Below, piece after piece: positions 38,132 through 63,739 of a stretch of DNA of 64,000 nt. The notes under the pieces are model-generated. The model had not been told where the DNA came from, made no database searches, and saw nothing but the letters and a program-made list of their open reading frames with translations. Within the stretch, counting starts at the first letter, position 1, and each line of letters begins with the position of its first letter. The translations under genes and the position numbers were made by a program. Origin of the DNA: a virus (lineage: Duplodnaviria > Heunggongvirae > Uroviricota > Caudoviricetes); IMG/VR virus record IMGVR_UViG_638275541_000001. One strand, 5' to 3'.

Positions 38132-38635
38132 TCAACTTAGTTTTGCAAACTCTCCGTGGAGTTTAATAGCAGCTTCACAGTAAGCTTTATGGGCTTCTTC
38201 AGGTGTGTCAAATAAACCAAGTGATGTCCTTTTACCTCTGCATGTTATAGCTGCCCTCCACTTATTGCAGTCTTTAAAGTAATGTACACCCTTGTAACCT
38301 GATTTGTTAGTCGTCTGCTTTATTCTATTTTGAGCATTTCCGTATTTATCAGTCTCCCTAAGATTAGAAATGTGATTATTACTTCTGTTACCATCAATGT
38401 GGTCTATCATCTTAGTGGGTTTGTAACCATGTTCAAACCACCAAACGAGGTGATGAATTTTTATTACGACATCTTTGAATTTAAGTACTTTGTAACCGTA
38501 AGCATCAGCACCTCCTGCAATCTGCCCAGCTTTAGCTTGTCTATTCCTGTCATACTTGTTGTAGAAGACCCCTTTGTCGGGGTCGTAAATAAAATTATCC
38601 TTGTAATCTTGAAGTGTTAGTGTACGGCGTACCAT
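38132..38635 (-). CDS. HNH homing endonuclease with AP2-type DNA-binding domain
   Basis: HLVWWFEHG...IDHIDGNRSNNHISNLR then SGYKGVHY...KWRAAI...LGLFDTPEEAHKAY; paralogous to 48209-48709 and 61059-61550. Confidence 0.7.
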   Translation of the reverse strand: MVRRTLTLQDYKDNFIYDPDKGVFYNKYDRNRQAKAGQIAGGADAYGYKVLKFKDVVIKIHHLVWWFEHGYKPTKMIDHIDGNRSNNHISNLRETDKYGNAQNRIKQTTNKSGYKGVHYFKDCNKWRAAITCRGKRTSLGLFDTPEEAHKAYCEAAIKLHGEFAKLS

Positions 38636-47184: not shown

Positions 47185-48231
47185 ATGGAGAAGTACACAT
47201 TAACAAAACTTCCCGATTCAGTTACACATGTTTTTATTGACTCTGATAGTATTGCCTATAAAGGTGCTTGTGTAGTTGAGAAAGCAAAATATAAATATGT
47301 CAATAAACTCACAGCAGAAGAATCTGATTCGTTTGATAATGCAAAAGATGCTGCAAGATGGTTAGCAGACCAGAGAATCCTTGTGGAAGAGCTTGGCCTG
47401 ACATTTGATGAAGATGAATGGGAAAGACAGACTTGGAAAGAAGCTAAGAGTGAAAAAGAAGCTATCATGGCTACTCAACAGGTGCTTCAGGAATGGCTTA
47501 AGATTGTTGGTAAAGAAAGAACTTGGGTAGGTTATTTAACAGAGAAAGGTGTGCATAAACATAAAGACATTAAAGGTCTTGAGCACCAATATCAAGGGAA
47601 CCGTAAAGATGCTGTCACACCAACACACTTAGTTGCTTGTCGTGAGTATCTTCTGTCAAGACCAGAGTTCAAATTGATTCTTGATGGGTTTGAAGCTGAC
47701 TCTATCGTAATTGCTAAAGCTGAAAAGATGGGTAAAAAGGCTGCCTTAATGAGTATTGATAAAGACCTTCGCCAAGCTGAAGGCACTTACTGCATTGATA
47801 TGACCTATGAAAAATCACCTTTAATTTTTATTGCTGATAACAATGTTGGTGAAATATGGGATTGCCCAATAAAATCAACACCAAAAGCTAAGAAGACAGT
47901 TGGGGTAGGTTTTAAATTTCTTTGCTATCAAGCCGTGGCTGGTGATAATGCGGATAATTATTTTGGTTTAAAGGGTGTTGGCAAGGTTACTATAATGAAA
48001 GCCCTTGAGGGTAAAACCACTTACAAAGAGTGTCTTGATGCAATTTATGAGCTTTATGCTAAGAAAGAGTCGTACACTTATGTCTCGTGGGATGGTCAAA
48101 CAATTACCAGAACACCCTTAGAGTTAATGCAGCAACACTTTTTCTTAGCTTATCAGGAAAGAAATAAGAAAGACGATTTCACTTTTGATAAGTATGGGTG
48201 GACACCAAATGTTAACTCAACAAACTCTTAA
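47185..48231 (+). CDS. 5'-3' exonuclease / flap endonuclease (RNase H-like)
   Basis: H3TH-type motif AGDNADNYFGLKGVGKVTIMKAL; acidic N-terminal region. Confidence 0.65.
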   Translation: MEKYTLTKLPDSVTHVFIDSDSIAYKGACVVEKAKYKYVNKLTAEESDSFDNAKDAARWLADQRILVEELGLTFDEDEWERQTWKEAKSEKEAIMATQQVLQEWLKIVGKERTWVGYLTEKGVHKHKDIKGLEHQYQGNRKDAVTPTHLVACREYLLSRPEFKLILDGFEADSIVIAKAEKMGKKAALMSIDKDLRQAEGTYCIDMTYEKSPLIFIADNNVGEIWDCPIKSTPKAKKTVGVGFKFLCYQAVAGDNADNYFGLKGVGKVTIMKALEGKTTYKECLDAIYELYAKKESYTYVSWDGQTITRTPLELMQQHFFLAYQERNKKDDFTFDKYGWTPNVNSTNS

Positions 48232-48709
48232 AGAGCACCTGCACTATGACCCCGAAACAGGGGTCTTTACTTGGTTAGTTGATAGAAAAGGTAAGGCCAA
48301 AGCTGGCTCAGTAGCAGGTTTTAAACACCATAGCGGTTATATCTATATAAAACTCTTCGGAAAAAGATATGCAGCACACAGGCTGGCATTCTTGTATATG
48401 AAAGGATACCTCCCAAAATTTGTTGACCACAAGAATTGTATCAGATACGACAACTGGTTCGACAATTTGAGAGAGTGTAGCAGGTCAGACAACAACTGTA
48501 ATGCAGTCAAAAGAAGAGATAATAAGTCTGGTGTGAAGGGTGTATATTACCACAAGCAAAGAGGTAGATGGGCTGCACAAGTTAAGCATAATAAAGTTTG
48601 CTACCATCTAGGTCTATTTGACTCTGTTGCTGAGGCTGAAGAAGTTGTCAAAAAGAAAAGAGAAGAACTTCATAGAGAGTTTACAAATCACGGAGAAGCT
48701 CATGAATGA
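48209..48709 (+). CDS. HNH homing endonuclease with AP2 domain
   Basis: AHRLAFLYMKGY...VDHKNCIRYDNWFDNL then SGVKGVYYH...RWAAQV...LGLFDSVAEAEE; start moved to ATG 24 nt inside track ORF. Confidence 0.7.
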   Translation: MLTQQTLKEHLHYDPETGVFTWLVDRKGKAKAGSVAGFKHHSGYIYIKLFGKRYAAHRLAFLYMKGYLPKFVDHKNCIRYDNWFDNLRECSRSDNNCNAVKRRDNKSGVKGVYYHKQRGRWAAQVKHNKVCYHLGLFDSVAEAEEVVKKKREELHREFTNHGEAHE

Positions 48710-58998: not shown

Positions 58999-59319
58999 AT
59001 GAGCAAAGTTTATAACACTCGCAAATTACAGATTTTCGTACTGTGCCAGTTTATGGCTAAAGAATATAACTTCTACTATTGTGGTACAGGTTTTATTAGT
59101 GATGATGATGGTTCATATCTACCATTTAAAGAAGCTGTGAAGCTCTTTAATGAAGAGAAAAACTCTAAGAAAGATATTGAAAAGGTTAAGCTAACCTACA
59201 GCAAGAAAGATAAGAAGATTATCTGCCTAGATAACTTTGTAAAAGTTACTGGAGAAGCAAAAGAGTTTATGGATGAGAGTGAGATTTCATTCACAAGCAT
59301 CTTGAAAGTAGCTCAGTAA
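58999..59319 (+). CDS. hypothetical protein
   Basis: 106-aa ORF. Confidence 0.4.
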   Translation: MSKVYNTRKLQIFVLCQFMAKEYNFYYCGTGFISDDDGSYLPFKEAVKLFNEEKNSKKDIEKVKLTYSKKDKKIICLDNFVKVTGEAKEFMDESEISFTSILKVAQ

Positions 59320-59331
59320 ACAGATACTATA

Positions 59332-59357
59332 AGGGAACTGTAAAGGTTCCCTTTTTA
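59332..59357 (+). terminator. rho-independent terminator
   Basis: AGGGAAC...GTTCCCT hairpin followed by TTTTT. Confidence 0.6.
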
Positions 59358-59370
59358 TTTTGGAGATAAA

Positions 59371-59886
59371 ATGTATCTGTCAAACCTGAAACGTTCGGCT
59401 GCAATGTCAGTCCTAAGACTCAGCTTTGAGGAACGTCAAGAGTTCATTGACTCCCACCAATACGACCCTTCTAACTCGAATCACATGGTTCTTTGGAATC
59501 GTGATAACTTCCGTGAAAGAGCACTTGTCCGTTATTACCCACACTACACAATAGATAACCTGTATGAATGGTGTGTTGTGAAGAACACTATTGCAACACT
59601 GAACAATCTTTGCAGGTATACAGGTAAGCAAGCATTTACATTAGGCCACCACAAACCTGTTACAAAGGGTGGTGAGCATCACTGTGCAAACTGGTTTATC
59701 CAGACTAGACTTGATAACCAGAGGCAAGGGGATAGACTTTTAAGTACCCCTAAGATGACCTACGAAGAGCAAGAGAAATATATCAAAAATAATATGCCAG
59801 ATGTGCTTGACAACAACTATACAGATTTGGCAATATCTCTCCTGTTGAAGTTCGAGACAGTTTATAGGGCAACTTATAATGGCTAA
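59371..59886 (+). CDS. HNH endonuclease
   Basis: 171 aa; LGHHKPVTKGGEHHCANWFIQTRLDNQRQG matches HNH core. Confidence 0.6.
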   Translation: MYLSNLKRSAAMSVLRLSFEERQEFIDSHQYDPSNSNHMVLWNRDNFRERALVRYYPHYTIDNLYEWCVVKNTIATLNNLCRYTGKQAFTLGHHKPVTKGGEHHCANWFIQTRLDNQRQGDRLLSTPKMTYEEQEKYIKNNMPDVLDNNYTDLAISLLLKFETVYRATYNG

Positions 59887-60157
59887 AGAGAAGTGGGAGA
59901 TTTTACCATTAGTCAGTGAAGGCGGTAATGGTTGTGAAATGTACATGATACGTGGTCATGTTCCAGAACCAATTGCACTTGAGATGGTAAACAACTTTAC
60001 AGATGGCTCTTACAAAGACTTAGGGGAGCCAACTATAAAGCAGCAATGGGTAAAGCCTGTACCAGACAGCACAGGTAACTGTAGTGTACTTTATCACGTT
60101 GTAGACCCTGCAAAATGCAAATCTGCAATGGCAGTAACAAACGTAACTTTTGATTGA
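59879..60157 (+). CDS. hypothetical protein
   Basis: 92-aa ORF. Confidence 0.35.
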   Translation: MAKEKWEILPLVSEGGNGCEMYMIRGHVPEPIALEMVNNFTDGSYKDLGEPTIKQQWVKPVPDSTGNCSVLYHVVDPAKCKSAMAVTNVTFD

Positions 60158-60168
60158 GAGAGAAAACT

Positions 60169-61050
60169 ATGAAAACTGTTATTGAAGCCGTCGTCACCGC
60201 ACAAGAGAAATTCTTCCACACAGAAAAATTTAATATCATTCAATTCCCATCTGGAGAAATTGGTGGAAACTTCTCTGAAGATTTTGTTAAGTTTACTGAG
60301 CGTAATGCTGGTAAGATTGATAATGTTATAATTACTGTACAGGGATATGACAAAGATACACTGTTTGCATTAGCTTTGGCTAAGGATGCCGTTGACAGTC
60401 TTGTTCCCCAGAAATCAGCGATGAAAACCGTTGTTTTCGGGTTCTTACCAAATGCTCGATATGACCGCCACATGTTCAAAGGTGATGCAGCAGCACTGAA
60501 AGTCTTTGCCAACCTAGTTAATGCAATGGGCTTTGATGCAGTATGTGCTCTTGACCCTCACAGCAATGTTGCAGAAAACTTATTTAAGTGCTTTCAGAGC
60601 ATGAAGCAAAAAGATGTGGCAGTCCACTATGCAAATGACCCTCTGATTGATTACTTAGTAGCCCCAGATGCAGGTGCTTCTAAGAAGATTGCAGAGACTG
60701 CTAAAGAGGTGGATAAACCATACATCACAATGTCTAAAGTGCGCAACCTTAAGACTGGTGAAATTACTGGTATGCGAATCCTTGATGATGTTGATTTGAC
60801 AGATAAAACCGTCATGATTCTGGATGATATCTGTGATGGTGGTCGAACCTTCGTAGAAGCAGCAAAACATCTTCGTGAAGCAGGTGCAAAACGTGTGGAA
60901 CTTTATGTAACACATGGTATCTTCTCTAAAGATGTTGAAAACCTTCTTGACAATGGTATCGACCATATTTACACTACAAACTCTTTAGGCGAAGCTAAAG
61001 ACCGTGGCTTAACACATTACAGTCAAGTTACTGTAGCAAATTTGGATTAG
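60169..61050 (+). CDS. ribose-phosphate pyrophosphokinase-like enzyme (PRPS family; candidate ADP-ribose pyrophosphokinase of an NAD+ reconstitution pathway)
   Basis: ~293 aa from ATG with RBS GAGAGAG; phosphoribosyltransferase-type fold signatures (VAPDAGASKK, MILDDICDGGRTF); paired with NAMPT-like gene downstream. Confidence 0.6.
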   Translation: MKTVIEAVVTAQEKFFHTEKFNIIQFPSGEIGGNFSEDFVKFTERNAGKIDNVIITVQGYDKDTLFALALAKDAVDSLVPQKSAMKTVVFGFLPNARYDRHMFKGDAAALKVFANLVNAMGFDAVCALDPHSNVAENLFKCFQSMKQKDVAVHYANDPLIDYLVAPDAGASKKIAETAKEVDKPYITMSKVRNLKTGEITGMRILDDVDLTDKTVMILDDICDGGRTFVEAAKHLREAGAKRVELYVTHGIFSKDVENLLDNGIDHIYTTNSLGEAKDRGLTHYSQVTVANLD

Positions 61051-61058
61051 GTATTAAA

Positions 61059-61550
61059 ATGGATAAGGGTTACTTCGAAAAATACCTAATATACGAACCA
61101 GAGACAGGTTTACTAATTTGGAAAGTAACCCTTTGCAATACCGCTATTGCTGGTAATGTTGCTGGCACAAGGTCTAAGAAGGGTTATATCCAAGTTCAGA
61201 TAAATAAGAAGAGGTACTATGCGCATAATATCGCATGGATTCTATCTGGAGGTGATATACCAAGTGGATATGAGATAGACCACATAGACCTTGACAAAAC
61301 AAATAATAGGCTGGAAAACTTAAGACTGAGTACAAAGTCACAAAACCAAAGGAATAGAGGTCTACAAAAGAACAATAAAACTGGCGTGAAGGGCGTAAGT
61401 GTGTGTCCACAGACAGGTCTTTATAAGGCAAGGGTGATGCTTTATCATAAAGAATACTTTTGCGGAAGATTTAAAACGCTAGAAGAAGCTAAAGAAGCTG
61501 TAATTAGAAAACGAATAGAACTTCATGGTAAGTTTGCAAGACATAACTAA
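61059..61550 (+). CDS. HNH homing endonuclease with AP2 domain, inserted between the two NAD-related genes
   Basis: YAHNIAWILSGG...IDHIDLDKTNNRLENLR then TGVKGVSV...LYKARV...FKTLEEAKEA. Confidence 0.7.
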   Translation: MDKGYFEKYLIYEPETGLLIWKVTLCNTAIAGNVAGTRSKKGYIQVQINKKRYYAHNIAWILSGGDIPSGYEIDHIDLDKTNNRLENLRLSTKSQNQRNRGLQKNNKTGVKGVSVCPQTGLYKARVMLYHKEYFCGRFKTLEEAKEAVIRKRIELHGKFARHN

Positions 61551-61567
61551 TAGAGAGAGGCATTAAT

Positions 61568-63349
61568 ATGAGTAAATCACTTTACGCAGTACCAGCAGGT
61601 CTTAATGCAGATGCTTACAAGTCATCACATATATATCAGTATCCAGATGCTACACAGTATCTTATGTTAAACCTGACACCACGTAGTGATAAATGGTTTA
61701 ACAGCCCCTTAGCAATTGATGGTGTAGTGGCTTTTGGTATTCAACGTTTTGTTAAAGATTACTTGATAGACCACTGGAACGCCACTTTCTTTGAACGTGA
61801 TAAAAAAGAAGCAGTTGACGAAATCTTAGAAGTCATGAATGGTGTTCTGGGTAAAGATGCTATCGGTAGAGAGCATTGGGAAGCACTTCACGATTTAGGC
61901 TATCTACCAGTTGAAGTATACGCTGTAGAAGAAGGTACAGTTGTTCCTATGCGTGTTCCAATGATTGTCTTCCAGAACACTGTTTCAGGTTTCCATTGGG
62001 TAGCAGGTTATCTGGAAGATGCTTTCTCTGCTGAGATTTGGAAGGCTTGCACCATTGCAACTATTGCATTGCACTACAAACGCATCTGTAAGAAGTGGGC
62101 TGACCTTACTTGCGACAATGACTTACATTTACCTTATCAGTGCCATGACTTTGCTATGCGTGGTATGTCCGGCTTTACCGATGACGCATTTAATGCTGTA
62201 GGTCACTTAACCAGCTTTAAAGGGACTGATAGCTTCCCTGCTGTATACACAGCTAAACGTATCTATGGACAGGCTTACCCAATCTCTGATATTGGCAGTT
62301 CTGTACCAGCCACTGAACACTCTGTGATGTGTGCAAACATTGCTTGGGAAGGTGGTAACGAGTTGGTTGAAGAAGAAAGACGATTTAAAGGTGAGTTGCA
62401 AACCTTCCGTCGTTTCTTAACAGAAACTTACCCAACTGGTATTGCAAGTATTGTTTCAGATACTTATAACTTCTGGAGAACTGTGTCAGAAATCCTACCA
62501 GCACTTCGTAAAGAAATTATGGAACGTGATGGTAGGCTGGTAATTCGCCCTGACTCTGGAGACCCTGTACATATTGTCACAGGTTATAAAGCAATCCACT
62601 TAGAGTGTGCTAAAAAGGCTTACTACGAGCACCTAAGCAAGCTAGAGGCAAGTGATACAATGCTGAACTCTGTCCTGAACATGAAGCTTGAAAACATTAG
62701 TTACGGTATTGCTGGATGGCTACTGTCAGAAGGCTACGAGATGGTTGTTGACAGAGAAGACTTTGAAGTTGCTGATACAGTGATGTTGAAAAATGCTTAT
62801 ATGGTTGGTTCTGCAAACGTTGTAACACGTCCTGTAGCTGAAATTGATGGAGCTATTAAGACACTGTACAACATCTTTGGGGGAACTATTAACTCTAAAG
62901 GATTTAAGGTACTTGATGAGCATATCGGCCTTATCTATGGTGACTCTATCACACTGGAACGTGCAAACGAAATCCTGAAGCGTCTGTATGAAATGGGTTT
63001 TGCAAGTTCTAACGTAGTGTTTGGTGTAGGCTCTTACACTTACCAGTACATGACTCGTGACACCTTTGCATTTGCTGTCAAAGCAACTCTTGCAAGCATT
63101 GGTGGTAAAGAGATTATGCTTGCAAAAGACCCTAAAACAGATAGTGGTGTTAAGAAGTCTGCCTTTGGTGGTGTAGCACCTATGTGGGACGGTGATAAGC
63201 TGAAAGCTGTAGATGGATATGGATTCCAGAGTTTTGCAGATGTACTTGACCACCCAGCCTGTGCTTTACGTTTAGTCTTTAGTGACTCTGAGCAGTTCGG
63301 TTACACAACTCTTGGTGATATTCGAAATAATATTGACAAGCAGCTTTAA
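61568..63349 (+). CDS. nicotinamide phosphoribosyltransferase-like enzyme (NAMPT family; candidate nicotinamide ADP-ribose transferase)
   Basis: 593 aa; NAMPT/NadV-like regions (GTDSFPAVYTA, PATEHSVMCA, IRPDSGDPV, LIYGDSITLE). Confidence 0.65.
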   Translation: MSKSLYAVPAGLNADAYKSSHIYQYPDATQYLMLNLTPRSDKWFNSPLAIDGVVAFGIQRFVKDYLIDHWNATFFERDKKEAVDEILEVMNGVLGKDAIGREHWEALHDLGYLPVEVYAVEEGTVVPMRVPMIVFQNTVSGFHWVAGYLEDAFSAEIWKACTIATIALHYKRICKKWADLTCDNDLHLPYQCHDFAMRGMSGFTDDAFNAVGHLTSFKGTDSFPAVYTAKRIYGQAYPISDIGSSVPATEHSVMCANIAWEGGNELVEEERRFKGELQTFRRFLTETYPTGIASIVSDTYNFWRTVSEILPALRKEIMERDGRLVIRPDSGDPVHIVTGYKAIHLECAKKAYYEHLSKLEASDTMLNSVLNMKLENISYGIAGWLLSEGYEMVVDREDFEVADTVMLKNAYMVGSANVVTRPVAEIDGAIKTLYNIFGGTINSKGFKVLDEHIGLIYGDSITLERANEILKRLYEMGFASSNVVFGVGSYTYQYMTRDTFAFAVKATLASIGGKEIMLAKDPKTDSGVKKSAFGGVAPMWDGDKLKAVDGYGFQSFADVLDHPACALRLVFSDSEQFGYTTLGDIRNNIDKQL

Positions 63350-63363
63350 AAGTATATGATAAG

Positions 63364-63387
63364 AGGCTCCTACGGGAGCCTTTTTTA
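63364..63387 (+). terminator. rho-independent terminator
   Basis: AGGCTCC-TACG-GGAGCCT followed by TTTTTT. Confidence 0.65.
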
Positions 63388-63403
63388 ATTTCTGGAGAAA
63401 ACT

Positions 63404-63739
63404 ATGAAAATCAAAGAGATGAACATCAACGTTGTCTTGGAAGAACGTTGGGAAAACATTAAGAAACCTGAAAATGGTCATAAATTCCTTAACAAAATTT
63501 TAGTAGCAGCTAAAGAAGAACTGACGGGTAAGGTTGCAGCAGCAATCACAATAAAAGTCTGTGTAAAAGGTCTTCCAGACAACCACCAATTTGCACTTGA
63601 CGAGTTTAAAGAAAGCTTCTACAATCCAAACAAACAGATACTTGAAAGTAACTTTGCAGTGTCTACAAGTATCGTCCATGACAGAAGCTTTATCCTTTAC
63701 AAAAACATGAGAGGTGAGTCATGCAAGCATATTGGATAG
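63404..63739 (+). CDS. hypothetical protein
   Basis: 111-aa ORF with RBS-like GGAGAAAA. Confidence 0.4.
   Translation: MKIKEMNINVVLEERWENIKKPENGHKFLNKILVAAKEELTGKVAAAITIKVCVKGLPDNHQFALDEFKESFYNPNKQILESNFAVSTSIVHDRSFILYKNMRGESCKHIG

What the first reader, a model, noticed from the sequence alone, without database searches (positions are those of the whole stretch)
60169..63349. PRPS-like plus NAMPT-like gene pair, split by a homing endonuclease: candidate NAD+ reconstitution counter-defence module
A ribose-phosphate pyrophosphokinase homolog and a nicotinamide phosphoribosyltransferase homolog sit together between two terminators (59332-59357 and 63364-63387), separated only by an HNH-AP2 endonuclease gene. 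From established knowledge, such pairs in virulent phages were long annotated as NAD salvage, and recent work reported a two-enzyme pathway (ADP-ribose pyrophosphokinase plus nicotinamide ADP-ribose transferase, from the same two families) that rebuilds NAD+ from ADP-ribose and nicotinamide to defeat NAD-depleting immunity. From sequence alone I cannot tell PRPP/NMN chemistry from ADPR-PP/NAD+ chemistry; that is inference. No NMN adenylyltransferase was seen in the window, which mildly favours the direct reconstitution route.
Basis: partly seen in the sequence, partly recalled or inferred. Interest (0 to 1): 0.8.

Follow-up and report, generated by a model that had tools for sequence, protein, structure and literature searches.

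The report
Felix O1 phage NAD+ rebuilding genes

Summary
There are three tightly packed + strand ORFs: a Prs-like gene (60169-61050, 293 aa), a free-standing HNH endonuclease gene (61059-61550, 163 aa) and a Nampt-like gene (61568-63349, 593 aa). The window is Salmonella phage Felix O1.

The two enzymes are 95% and 98% identical to gp79 and gp80 of phage Bas63, the pair in which NARP1 was discovered. Osterman et al. list Felix O1's own proteins in their supplementary Adps and Namat tables. The published Namat signature motif, the selectivity loop, the catalytic residues and the Adps catalytic lysine are all present. I found no NMN adenylyltransferase in the window or in the other 22 kb of the genome.

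The HNH gene sits in the spacer between the two genes and interrupts neither. Only 60 of the 259 phage records that match the locus carry it, and Bas63 does not.

Extras:
- The terminator-bounded unit has five genes, including the ortholog of a reported anti-retron gene.
- Phage FO1a is an otherwise identical natural deletion mutant of this locus.
- This lineage's Namat has an undescribed ~85-residue inserted domain.
- A Macro-domain gene about 7 kb past the window's end resembles the phosphatase of extended NARP1 operons.

Novelty: already known.

The parts
59331..59353 (+). Terminator-like hairpin plus U-run that closes the upstream unit and marks the 5' boundary of the five-gene unit
   Evidence: Found (9-bp stem, then TTTATTTT). 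Folds at -12.4 kcal/mol, z -2.1. Conserved in Bas63 at L005:14809-14831.
59371..59886 (+). ORF171, ortholog of Bas63 gp77. A nuclease-like protein with an HNH-type motif (GHHKPVTKGGEHHCANW...DNQRQG). Bas63 gp77 is reported to counter retron Ec67.
   Evidence: 91% identical to bas63_0077. Matches phrog_3500 (E 5e-93) and weakly an HNH phrog (E 8e-6). The PhageMaP preprint reports a 10-fold plating drop on Ec67 for the gp77 deletion, restored by complementation.
59879..60157 (+). ORF92, ortholog of Bas63 gp78, function unknown. It overlaps ORF171 by 8 nt and ends 11 nt before the Adps ATG.
   Evidence: 100% identical to bas63_0078. Homologs fall in 13 clusters; the longest contigs that carry them are at most about 85 kb. 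AF2 model pLDDT 68. No significant fold match.
60169..61050 (+). adps: ADP-ribose pyrophosphokinase (ADPR-PP synthetase), a Prs-family enzyme
   Evidence: 95% identical to Bas63 gp79. Identical to Felix O1 AF320576_00140 in the published Adps table. K190 aligns with the SPbetaL1 catalytic K162. Fails every NCBIfam Prs equivalog cut-off.
61059..61550 (+). Free-standing HNH_3 (plus weak AP2-like) homing endonuclease gene in the adps-namat spacer
   Evidence: HNH_3 E 9e-20. phrog_99 E 3e-68. Present in only 60 records, against 259 that match the wider locus query 59300-63450. Absent from Bas63, which has a 45-nt spacer with a hairpin instead. Two paralogs elsewhere in the window.
61568..63349 (+). 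namat: nicotinamide ADP-ribose transferase, a Nampt-family enzyme. Contains a lineage-specific inserted domain of about 85 residues (aa ~340-427, window ~62585-62848).
   Evidence: 98% identical to Bas63 gp80. Helix motif GSYTYQYMTRD at aa 488-498, loop SDKW at aa 40-43, catalytic residues conserved. Best PDB sequence hit is SPbetaL1 Namat 9W5W at E 2.5e-128, against 6e-41 for the best-scoring mammalian Nampt. AF2 pLDDT 93 and Foldseek top hit 9w5x at TM 0.95.
63361..63384 (+). Terminator-like hairpin plus U-run 12 nt after the namat stop codon
   Evidence: Found (10-bp stem, 5 GC pairs). Folds at -16.6 kcal/mol, z -4.15, with 0 of 200 shuffles as stable. Conserved in Bas63 at L005:18366-18389.

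Best explanation
This is the NARP1 (NAD+ reconstitution pathway 1) locus of Salmonella phage Felix O1.

**Mechanism.** When an NADase-type defence (SIR2, TIR or SEFIR effectors) cleaves NAD+ into ADP-ribose and nicotinamide, Adps (60169-61050) uses ATP to pyrophosphorylate the ADPR ribose, giving ADPR-PP. Namat (61568-63349) then replaces the pyrophosphate with nicotinamide. This regenerates NAD+ directly, without NMN or an NMN adenylyltransferase.

**The gene between them.** It is a selfish free-standing HNH homing endonuclease that occupies the spacer. It is most likely co-transcribed and irrelevant to the chemistry.

**Shown and inferred.**
- Shown here: gene structure, near-identity to the Bas63 proteins, motif conservation, fold, sporadic HNH distribution and absence of NMNAT.
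- Shown in the literature for orthologs or homologs: the chemistry and the anti-defence phenotype.
- Inferred: that the Felix O1 proteins behave the same way, and that the HNH insertion does not impair expression.
For: **Identity of the phage.** The window is Felix O1. Its first 25 kb are 99.9% identical to FO1a, species Felixounavirus felixO1. The regions flanking the locus are 100% identical to FO1a.

**Orthology.**
- Adps is 279/293 and Namat 579/593 identical to Bas63 gp79 and gp80, same lengths, no gaps.
- Osterman et al. show that Bas63 genes 79-80 are needed to resist SIR2-HerA, to restore NAD+ and to make ADPR-PP (m/z 720.010). This does not depend on host pncC or nadR.
- PhageMaP independently reports a 10^4-10^6-fold plating drop for either single deletion on Sir2-HerA cells.
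- The Felix O1 proteins are listed in the Adps and Namat supplementary tables, and the Adps string is identical.

**Namat residues and fold.**
- The Namat signature is present (GSYTYQYMTRD), as is the Bas63-type loop (K42, W43).
- D15, Y17, F195, R198, D221, H251, R327, D329 and G458-D459 are conserved.
- phmmer E-values: 2.5e-128 to SPbetaL1 Namat, 6e-106 to H. ducreyi NadV, and 6e-41 to the best-scoring mammalian Nampt.
- Foldseek ranks Namat 9w5x/9w5w first, TM 0.95.

**Adps.**
- It keeps the catalytic lysine (K190, equivalent to K162).
- It scores higher to SPbetaL1 Adps (83.6 bits) than to any solved Prs (64.6 bits or less).
- It fails all Prs equivalog cut-offs, for example 113 bits against 296.

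**No NMNAT.** No PF01467 family was found in 81 window ORFs or in the 20 largest ORFs of the remaining 22 kb of FO1a.
Against: - No assay exists for the Felix O1 proteins themselves.
- The Bas63 enzymes did not purify, so in vitro chemistry comes from SPbetaL1 homologs. The Adps homolog is only 28.6% identical to the window's.
- SPbetaL1 Namat can also make NMN from PRPP in vitro when ADPR-PP is absent, so some classical activity is not excluded.
- The HNH gene replaces the spacer hairpin seen in Bas63, and a weak terminator-like site lies inside it at 61217-61238. Equal expression of namat is therefore assumed, not shown.
- Generic annotation models still call the two proteins Prs subfamily and nicotinate PRTase.
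Confidence: 0.93

Rival explanations
1. Classical NAD+ salvage, as the genes have long been annotated. The Prs-like enzyme makes PRPP from ribose-5-phosphate, the Nampt-like enzyme makes NMN from PRPP and nicotinamide, and a host enzyme (NadR or PncC route) finishes NAD+.
For: - Pfam, PHROG and NCBIfam name the proteins Prs and Nampt/NAPRTase.
- Nearly all GenBank relatives are annotated this way.
- SPbetaL1 Namat does convert PRPP plus nicotinamide to NMN in vitro when ADPR-PP is absent.
Against: - The 95-98% identical Bas63 pair still defeats SIR2-HerA in a host lacking pncC and nadR, and produces ADPR-PP in vivo.
- One search's text says SPbetaL1 Adps gave no product with 'PRPP and ATP', while its Fig. 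2D legend gives ribose-5-phosphate as the substrate tested alongside ADPR. The authors conclude it is not Prs.
- With both donors present, Namat made only NAD+.
- The window Adps fails every Prs equivalog threshold.
- The adenine-clamp motif specific to Namat is present.
Confidence: 0.03
2. The locus is a decaying or expression-impaired NARP1. The HNH insertion uncouples adps from namat, so the pathway works poorly in Felix O1 and is being lost.
For: - The HNH gene replaces the native 45-nt spacer.
- A weak terminator-like hairpin lies inside the HNH gene.
- The region is demonstrably dispensable. FO1a has lost 2,647 bp of it, and a metagenomic relative lacks about 3.6 kb.
Against: - Both enzyme ORFs are intact and full length, with all catalytic and specificity residues and their own GAGAGAG ribosome-binding sites.
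- The gaps are only 8 and 17 nt.
- 60 related genomes keep the same three-gene arrangement at 89-99% identity, which argues that the arrangement is tolerated.
- The protein sequences are under evident purifying selection (98% identity to Bas63).
Confidence: 0.03
3. Dual use. NARP1 chemistry operates under NADase attack, while Namat also boosts NMN and NAD+ from host PRPP during ordinary infection. This is a metabolic auxiliary role rather than purely counter-defence, and it can hold alongside the best explanation.
For: - Residual NMN-forming activity of Namat in vitro, about half that of human Nampt.
- PhageMaP reports milder fitness effects of g79 and g80 deletions on retron Ec86 and hhe hosts, which are not classical NADase systems.
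Against: - ADPR-PP and its product were seen only when the defence system was present.
- The authors argue that NARP1 builds no NAD+ unless depletion has occurred.
- Host NMN-to-NAD+ enzymes were not needed for the Bas63 phenotype.
Confidence: 0.1

Closest known systems
NARP1 of Escherichia phage Bas63 (JohannRWettstein), genes 79-80 (Osterman et al., bioRxiv 10.1101/2024.02.11.579819)
   Same: - Same genus (Felixounavirus).
- Same gene order and flanking genes: nrdG, three small ORFs, gp77, gp78, adps, namat.
- Same protein lengths (293 and 593 aa), 95% and 98% identity.
- Same flanking terminator-like hairpins.
   Different: - Bas63 has a 45-nt adps-namat spacer with a small GC hairpin. Felix O1 has a 163-codon HNH endonuclease gene there instead.
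- There are 14 substitutions in each protein. All residues checked are identical in the two phages.
NARP1 of Bacillus phage SPbetaL1 (enzymology; Namat crystal structures 9W5W and 9W5X, PMC12774641)
   Same: - Same two-enzyme logic.
- Namat core, catalytic residues and the GSXΦXΦXΦTRD helix motif are shared.
- The predicted fold superposes at TM 0.95.
- The Adps catalytic lysine is conserved.
   Different: - Adps is only 28.6% identical. Namat is about 38% identical.
- The selectivity loop uses Lys-Trp (K42, W43) instead of Arg40, and is 4 residues longer.
- The Felix O1 Namat carries an extra insertion of about 85 residues (aa ~340-427) and one of about 15 residues (aa ~259-273). The crystallised protein has neither.
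NARP1-AP (Adps, Macro-domain phosphatase Adpp, Namat), e.g. Vibrio phage Gary; the same arrangement is seen in Vibrio phage River4
   Same: - Three genes in a row with adps first and namat last.
- Felix O1-type genomes also encode a Macro-domain protein (FO1a gp13, Bas63 gp95). It is homologous to the River4 middle gene: 30% identity, E 5e-16.
   Different: - In Felix O1 the middle gene is an HNH endonuclease, not a Macro-domain phosphatase.
- The Macro gene lies about 7 kb past the window's end (about 8 kb downstream of namat). That is outside the 'within two genes' criterion used to define NARP1-AP.
- It also has an extra C-terminal half of about 100 residues.
NARP2 / classical phage NAD+ salvage (Vibrio phage KVP40 Nampt plus bifunctional Nmnat)
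   Same: A Nampt-family enzyme encoded by a virulent phage that raises NAD+ under NADase defence.
   Different: NARP2 needs an Nmnat and uses PRPP. Here no Nmnat exists, an Adps partner is present, and the Namat clamp motif is present.
Free-standing phage homing endonucleases of the HNH_3/AP2 type (like the intergenic seg and mob genes of T4; that comparison is from general knowledge)
   Same: - Small intact HNH_3 ORF in an intergenic spacer between conserved genes.
- Patchy presence among near-identical genomes: 60 records carry it, against 259 matching the locus.
- Paralogs elsewhere in the same genome.
   Different: No cleavage site or homing has been demonstrated. The AP2-like DNA-binding part scores below the Pfam threshold in this copy.

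Membership tests
NARP1 (Adps + Namat) | Adps: a Prs-family protein that belongs to the phage Adps clade rather than to canonical Prs | tested here: met
   - 95% identical to Bas63 gp79.
- Identical to the Felix O1 entry in the published Adps table.
- Scores 83.6 bits to SPbetaL1 Adps and 138 bits to a Pseudomonas phage Adps, against 64.6 bits or less to any solved Prs.
- Fails all NCBIfam Prs equivalog cut-offs.
- No tree was built here.
NARP1 (Adps + Namat) | Adps catalytic lysine (SPbetaL1 K162, whose mutation abolishes NAD+ synthesis) | tested here: met
   K190 aligns with K162 in a MAFFT alignment with four listed Adps proteins.
NARP1 (Adps + Namat) | Namat selectivity-clamp helix motif GSXΦ1XΦ2XΦ3TRD with aromatic X residues | tested here: met
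   GSYTYQYMTRD at aa 488-498. X = Y, Y, Y; Φ1 = T; Φ2 = Q; Φ3 = M, where the consensus is usually N or V. Identical in Bas63.
NARP1 (Adps + Namat) | Namat selectivity-clamp loop with Arg/Lys/Tyr at the third position, and a stacking residue at that position or the next | tested here: met
   S40-D41-K42-W43, identical to Bas63. For Bas63 the paper states that the fourth residue does the stacking.
NARP1 (Adps + Namat) | Conserved Nampt-like catalytic core (SPbetaL1 D13, Y15, F189, R192, D215, catalytic His, R306, D308) | tested here: met
   D15, Y17, F195, R198, D221, H251, R327 and D329. Most are invariant in a 29-sequence alignment.
NARP1 (Adps + Namat) | adps and namat in immediate genomic vicinity | tested here: met
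   They are 517 bp apart on the same strand, with one HNH gene between them. The published table flags the Felix O1 Namat as 'Adps-associated'.
NARP1 (Adps + Namat) | Enzymatic activities: ADPR + ATP to ADPR-PP, then ADPR-PP + nicotinamide to NAD+ | not testable with these tools
   Shown in vivo for the Bas63 orthologs and in vitro for the SPbetaL1 homologs. Inferred here by orthology.
NARP1 (Adps + Namat) | Counter-defence phenotype against NAD+-depleting systems | not testable with these tools
   Shown for Bas63 deletions. FO1a is a ready-made deletion comparator for Felix O1.
Canonical Prs/Nampt salvage or NARP2 | A bona fide ribose-phosphate diphosphokinase (equivalog-level match) | tested here: not met
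   It passes only the broad TIGR01251 subfamily model (139 bits against a 113-bit cut-off). All equivalog models fail by a wide margin, for example 113 against 296 and 79 against 438.
Canonical Prs/Nampt salvage or NARP2 | A partner NMN adenylyltransferase (PF01467-type Nmnat, NadR or NadM) in the genome | tested here: not met
   None among 81 window ORFs of at least 70 aa. None among the 20 largest ORFs of the remaining 22 kb in FO1a. ORFs under 100 aa outside the window were not scanned.
NARP1-AP (with Adpp) and RyDEP-extended NARP1 | A Macro-domain phosphatase or RyR-domain glycosidase within the NARP1 operon | tested here: not met
   No Macro or RyR family in the window. The gene in the middle is an HNH endonuclease. 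A Macro-domain homolog exists, but about 7 kb past the window's end.
Free-standing HNH homing endonuclease | Intact HNH nuclease domain | tested here: met
   HNH_3 E 8.7e-20 over profile positions 1-46 of 46. phrog_99 E 3e-68.
Free-standing HNH homing endonuclease | Sporadic presence or absence at one site among closely related genomes | tested here: met
   60 records carry it, against 259 that match the locus. Bas63 lacks it.
Free-standing HNH homing endonuclease | Site-specific cleavage of the endonuclease-free allele, and homing | not testable with these tools
   No data.

The most novel reading that the evidence does not exclude
Felix O1-type phages may run an extended NARP1 whose extra parts have gone unnoticed.

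1. **A distal Macro-domain protein.** FO1a gp13 (Bas63 gp95), about 7 kb past the window's end, is homologous to the Macro gene that sits between adps and namat in Vibrio phage River4. It could act in trans as an Adpp-like enzyme, turning ADPR-1''-phosphate or other ADPR derivatives into ADPR for Adps. That would widen the range of defences the phage can evade. The published survey counted Macro genes only within two genes of NARP1.
2. **The Namat insertion.** The confidently folded insertion of about 85 residues, placed right after the RPDSGDP substrate-binding strand, could be a lineage-specific lid, a regulatory module or a module that contacts Adps.
3. **ORF92 (gp78).** This perfectly conserved ORF is packed tightly against adps and could be another accessory or counter-defence factor.
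Probability: 0.2. Interest if true: 0.45.

Novelty: already known. Interest (0 to 1): 0.15.

Why it matters
It matters little as a discovery. NARP1 was described in 2024 from a phage of the same genus, and Felix O1's own proteins are in that paper's tables.

The practical value is in three places:

- **Annotation.** More than 200 related GenBank records still call these genes ribose-phosphate pyrophosphokinase and nicotinamide or nicotinate phosphoribosyltransferase, and current NCBIfam models cannot tell them apart.
- **A natural isogenic pair.** Felix O1 is a classic Salmonella typing and biocontrol phage. It comes with a natural deletion partner (Felix O1 against FO1a) for testing how much NAD+ reconstitution contributes to host range on Salmonella carrying NADase defences.
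- **A natural test case.** The HNH-containing and HNH-free alleles show whether a selfish gene inside a two-step pathway operon affects its function.

Tried and rejected
- **ORF92 (gp78) as a widespread NARP1 accessory.** The homolog search gave only 13 clusters, on contigs of at most about 85 kb, with no Pfam hit and no informative name. The AF2 model was mediocre (pLDDT 68). Foldseek against the PDB gave nothing below E 0.008 and no TM above 0.45. No conclusion.
- **ORF92 and the 111-aa ORF downstream of namat as paralogs flanking a cassette.** I suspected this from the chimeric protein P0013. BLASTP gave E 1.6, so I rejected it. P0013 is a deletion fusion instead.
- **ORF171 against solved structures.** No hit even at E 10. 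The PhageMaP preprint calls Bas63 gp77 a GIY-YIG protein. I see an HNH-type motif and a weak HNH PHROG hit instead, and leave this open.
- **Promoter scan.** The hits do not exceed the shuffled expectation (16 found against 13.6 ± 3.9), so I draw no promoter conclusions.
- **Terminator scan as a statistic.** It is also not enriched (3 found against 3.7). The two boundary hairpins are accepted on stability and on conservation in Bas63.
- **Bas63 accession.** Two wrong guesses (MZ501111, MZ501085) and two stepping-stone look-ups (MZ501080, MZ501084) came before MZ501086.
- **A solved or published Adps structure.** None found in the PDB copy or in the paper library.
- **Contacts of the Namat insertion with the active site.** They could not be measured because model coordinates are not exposed to scripts.

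Full report
**1. What is in the sequence**

- A Prs-like gene, 60169-61050, 293 aa from its ATG. The mechanical ORF call starts at a TTG at 60154, but the ATG follows a GAGAGAG ribosome-binding site.
- An HNH gene, 61059-61550, 163 aa.
- A Nampt-like gene, 61568-63349, 593 aa.

Pfam supports all three. The first has Pribosyltran and Pribosyl_synth. The second has HNH_3 at E 9e-20, with AP2 only weak (E 0.004, below threshold). The third has NAPRTase at E 5.5e-35 plus NAMPT_N.

Hairpin-plus-U-run sites lie at 59331-59353 and 63361-63384. They are more stable than shuffled sequence, with z-scores of -2.1 and -4.2. Both are conserved in Bas63.

Two details of the observation need correcting. The endonuclease gene separates the two enzyme genes without interrupting either. 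The terminator-bounded unit also contains two further upstream ORFs, 59371-59886 and 59879-60157.

**2. Where the window comes from**

The locus matches 259 phage records, almost all Felixounavirus, at 90-97% identity. The first 25 kb of the window are 99.9% identical to Salmonella phage FO1a, species Felixounavirus felixO1. The flanks of the locus are 100% identical to FO1a. The Adps protein is letter-for-letter the Felix O1 protein AF320576_00140 printed in a published supplement. The window is therefore Felix O1.

**3. What the gene pair is**

Osterman et al. discovered NARP1 in genes 79-80 of the Felixounavirus Bas63. Deleting the operon made the phage sensitive to SIR2-HerA and deepened the NAD+ depletion. 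The phenotype did not need the host genes pncC or nadR. ADPR-PP appeared only in cells infected by wild-type phage and carrying the defence system.

I fetched Bas63 (MZ501086). Genes 79 and 80 have exactly the lengths of the window genes. Their products are 95% (279/293) and 98% (579/593) identical to the window proteins, with no gaps.

The neighbours are also conserved: nrdG, three small ORFs, gp77 (91% identical) and gp78 (100% identical).

The paper's supplementary tables list Felix O1's Adps, and list its Namat as 'Adps-associated'. An independent knockout screen of Bas63 reports a 10^4-10^6-fold loss of plating on Sir2-HerA cells for either single deletion, rescued by complementation.

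**4. Telling ADPR-PP/NAD+ chemistry from PRPP/NMN chemistry**

A 2026 structural paper defines what makes a Namat different from a Nampt: a selectivity clamp. It consists of a helix motif, GSXΦXΦXΦTRD, with aromatic X residues that stack on the adenine, and a variable β1-β2 loop that supplies one more stacking residue.

*Namat*
- The window protein has GSYTYQYMTRD at residues 488-498 and S40-D41-K42-W43 in the loop. The loop is identical to Bas63, for which the paper says the fourth residue stacks.
- All catalytic-core residues map: D15, Y17, F195, R198, D221, H251, R327, D329 and G458-D459.
- By sequence, the SPbetaL1 Namat structures 9W5W/9W5X are the best PDB match (E 2.5e-128). H. ducreyi NadV follows (6e-106), then Xanthomonas Nampt (3e-51), and the best-scoring mammalian Nampt (6e-41).
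- An AlphaFold2 model (pLDDT 93, pTM 0.91) ranks the same Namat structures first by Foldseek, at TM 0.95.

*Adps*
- The lysine whose mutation kills SPbetaL1 Adps (K162) aligns with K190.
- The protein scores better to validated or listed Adps proteins (83.6-138 bits) than to any solved Prs (64.6 bits or less).
- It passes only the broad Prs subfamily model in NCBIfam and misses every equivalog cut-off by a wide margin.
- One visible difference lies in the loop that binds the ribose 5-phosphate in Prs (a role known from Prs structures). Prs has DD-x-x-(D/S)-T-(G/C)-G-T (alignments). The window has DDICDGGRT, and the Bacillus phage Adps proteins have DDLSS(F/Y)GGT. I note this without interpreting it.

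**5. Absence of an NMN adenylyltransferase**

A Pfam scan of 81 non-overlapping window ORFs of at least 70 aa found no CTP_transf_like, Nudix, Macro or RyR family. The third batch reached the 25-family display limit.

The 22 kb of the genome outside the window, read from FO1a, has no such family among its 20 largest ORFs. This fits NARP1 and rules out NARP2.

**6. The endonuclease**

The HNH gene is present in only 60 phage records, while 259 match the wider locus query. Bas63 is among those without it. Bas63 instead has a 45-nt spacer with a small GC hairpin of -11.5 kcal/mol. The only element shared by the two spacers is the GAGAGAG ribosome-binding site in front of namat.

The window holds two paralogs, 34-38% identical, at 48185-48709 (+) and 38132-38635 (-). 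The gaps to the flanking genes are 8 and 17 nt.

An intact nuclease domain, an intergenic position, patchy distribution and paralogs in the same genome together fit a free-standing homing endonuclease. Homing itself is inferred. In NARP1-AP operons, such as the one in Vibrio phage River4, the position between adps and namat holds a functional third enzyme, a Macro-domain protein. Here it holds a selfish gene.

**7. Things found along the way**

(a) *FO1a is a natural deletion mutant.* It lacks 2,647 bp (window 59692-62338) between two copies of the 9-mer TGTGCAAAC. The deletion fuses ORF171 codons 1-107 in frame to Namat codon 258 onwards. It removes ORF92, adps, the HNH gene and the N-terminal 257 residues of Namat. 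This explains the odd FO1a entry in the published Namat table, which begins with the ORF171 sequence.

(b) *A second, independent loss.* A more distant metagenomic relative lacks about 3.6 kb (window ~59983-63588). This creates an 80-aa fusion of the ORF92 N-terminus with the C-terminus of the 111-aa ORF that follows namat. The locus is therefore dispensable, as expected for an accessory counter-defence function.

(c) *ORF171 is the ortholog of Bas63 gp77.* Bas63 gp77 is reported to counter retron Ec67. The terminator-bounded unit thus looks like a small counter-defence cluster.

(d) *The Namat of this lineage carries an inserted domain.* It spans about 85 residues (aa ~340-427), is predicted with pLDDT 93-96, and lies directly after the RPDSGDP strand. 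A second insertion of about 15 residues lies at aa ~259-273. Long-form homologs of 582-610 aa, down to about 46% identity, share the domain, among them proteins of named Shigella, Yersinia and Pectobacterium phages. It is absent from SPbetaL1 Namat, from 496-aa enterobacterial chromosomal homologs and from Nampt. The Namat structure paper does not mention it.

(e) *A distal Macro-domain gene.* Outside the window, FO1a gp13 (97% identical to Bas63 gp95, annotated 'putative phosphatase') has a Macro domain (PF01661, E 1e-7). It aligns over the whole of River4 gp177, the Macro gene inside a NARP1-AP-type operon, at 30% identity and E 5e-16. The survey that defined NARP1-AP looked only within two genes of NARP1, so whether this distal gene feeds NARP1 is untested.

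**8. Verdict**

The system is already known, and these very proteins have already been catalogued.

What remains inferred is that the Felix O1 proteins have the same activities as their Bas63 and SPbetaL1 counterparts, and that the HNH insertion is functionally neutral.

Interest is low. The residual novelty lies in the side observations: the Namat insertion domain, the distal Macro gene, gp78 and the natural deletion variants. None of these changes the classification.

Noticed in passing
window 59683-62338 (compare L006, FO1a JF461087): Phage FO1a is 100% identical to the window on both sides. It lacks 2,647 bp between two TGTGCAAAC direct repeats (59683-59691 and 62330-62338). The deletion fuses ORF171 (aa 1-107) in frame to Namat (aa 258-593) and removes ORF92, adps and the HNH gene. 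FO1a is thus a natural isogenic NARP1 deletion of Felix O1.
   Followed up: yes
L007:5493-6407 compared with window ~59983-63588: A metagenomic Felixounavirus-like contig, about 74% DNA identity to the window here, has no adps, HNH gene or namat. It encodes an 80-aa chimera (P0013) of the ORF92 N-terminus and the C-terminus of the 111-aa ORF downstream of namat. This is a second independent absence of NARP1. Whether it is a deletion or the ancestral state was not resolved.
   Followed up: partly
window 59371-59886 (+): ORF171 is 91% identical to Bas63 gp77. A knockout screen reports that gp77 counters retron Ec67 and calls it a GIY-YIG protein. The sequence instead shows an HNH-like motif (GHHKPVTKGGEHHCANW...DNQRQG), and only a weak HNH PHROG hit was found. 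It lies in the same terminator-bounded unit as NARP1.
   Followed up: partly
window 59879-60157 (+): ORF92 is 100% identical to Bas63 gp78, while its neighbours are 91-98% identical. It is packed between gp77 and adps, with an 8-nt overlap upstream and an 11-nt gap downstream. Its homologs form only 13 clusters. It has no domain hit and no convincing fold match.
   Followed up: yes
window ~62585-62848 (Namat aa ~340-427) and ~62342-62386 (aa ~259-273): Two insertions relative to the crystallised SPbetaL1 Namat and to Nampt. The larger is a confidently predicted α/β domain (pLDDT 93-96) directly after the RPDSGDP strand. Long-form homologs of 582-610 aa, down to about 46% identity, share it. 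The Namat structure paper does not mention it. Function unknown.
   Followed up: partly
outside the window: L009:7205-7990 (FO1a gp13), equivalent to L005:26178-26963 (bas63_0095): A 261-aa Macro-domain protein (PF01661, E 1e-7) annotated 'phosphatase', about 7 kb past the window's end. Its best PDB sequence hits are OARD1/TARG1-type macrodomains. Its Macro domain is homologous (30% identity, E 5e-16) to the gene between adps and namat in Vibrio phage River4, a NARP1-AP-type operon. It is a possible Adpp-like helper acting in trans. Untested.
   Followed up: partly
window 48185-48709 (+) and 38132-38635 (-): Two more HNH_3/AP2 endonuclease genes, 38% and 34% identical to the one in the NARP1 spacer. 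One ORF among those scanned between 42860 and 63739 also hits a SegE-type GIY-YIG family. The genome carries several homing endonuclease genes.
   Followed up: partly
L005:16528-16572 (Bas63 adps-namat spacer): The HNH-free allele has a GC hairpin (GGGGCUUGAAAGCCCC, -11.5 kcal/mol, z -2.5) followed by AUUUUG. In Felix O1 the HNH gene takes its place. It might be an attenuator, an RNA-stability element or the homing target.
   Followed up: no
protein P0078 (843 aa, metagenomic Namat homolog): A Namat homolog with a large insertion inside the active-site motif RPD|SGD. The insertion begins with Cys and looks like an intein. It is another mobile element targeting this gene family.
   Followed up: no
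proteins P0082-P0133: 496-aa chromosomal homologs in Klebsiella, Cronobacter, Kosakonia, Phytobacter, Kluyvera and Erwinia are 47-49% identical to the phage Namat core and carry the GS(Y/F)TYQYNTRD motif. This agrees with the published report of bacterial NARP1 homologs.
   Followed up: no
window 63333-63360 and 59302-59330: Promoter-like hexamer pairs (TTGACA-16-TATGAT, 11 of 12 matches; TTGAAA-17-TACTAT, 9 of 12) sit immediately upstream of each boundary hairpin. Both are conserved in Bas63. The promoter-then-hairpin arrangement is unexplained.
   Followed up: no
window 60169-63349 (PHROG hits): phrog_12872, a 547-position family labelled nicotinamide phosphoribosyl transferase, matches Adps over its N-terminal part and Namat over its C-terminal part. 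This suggests that fused Adps-Namat proteins exist in some phages.
   Followed up: no
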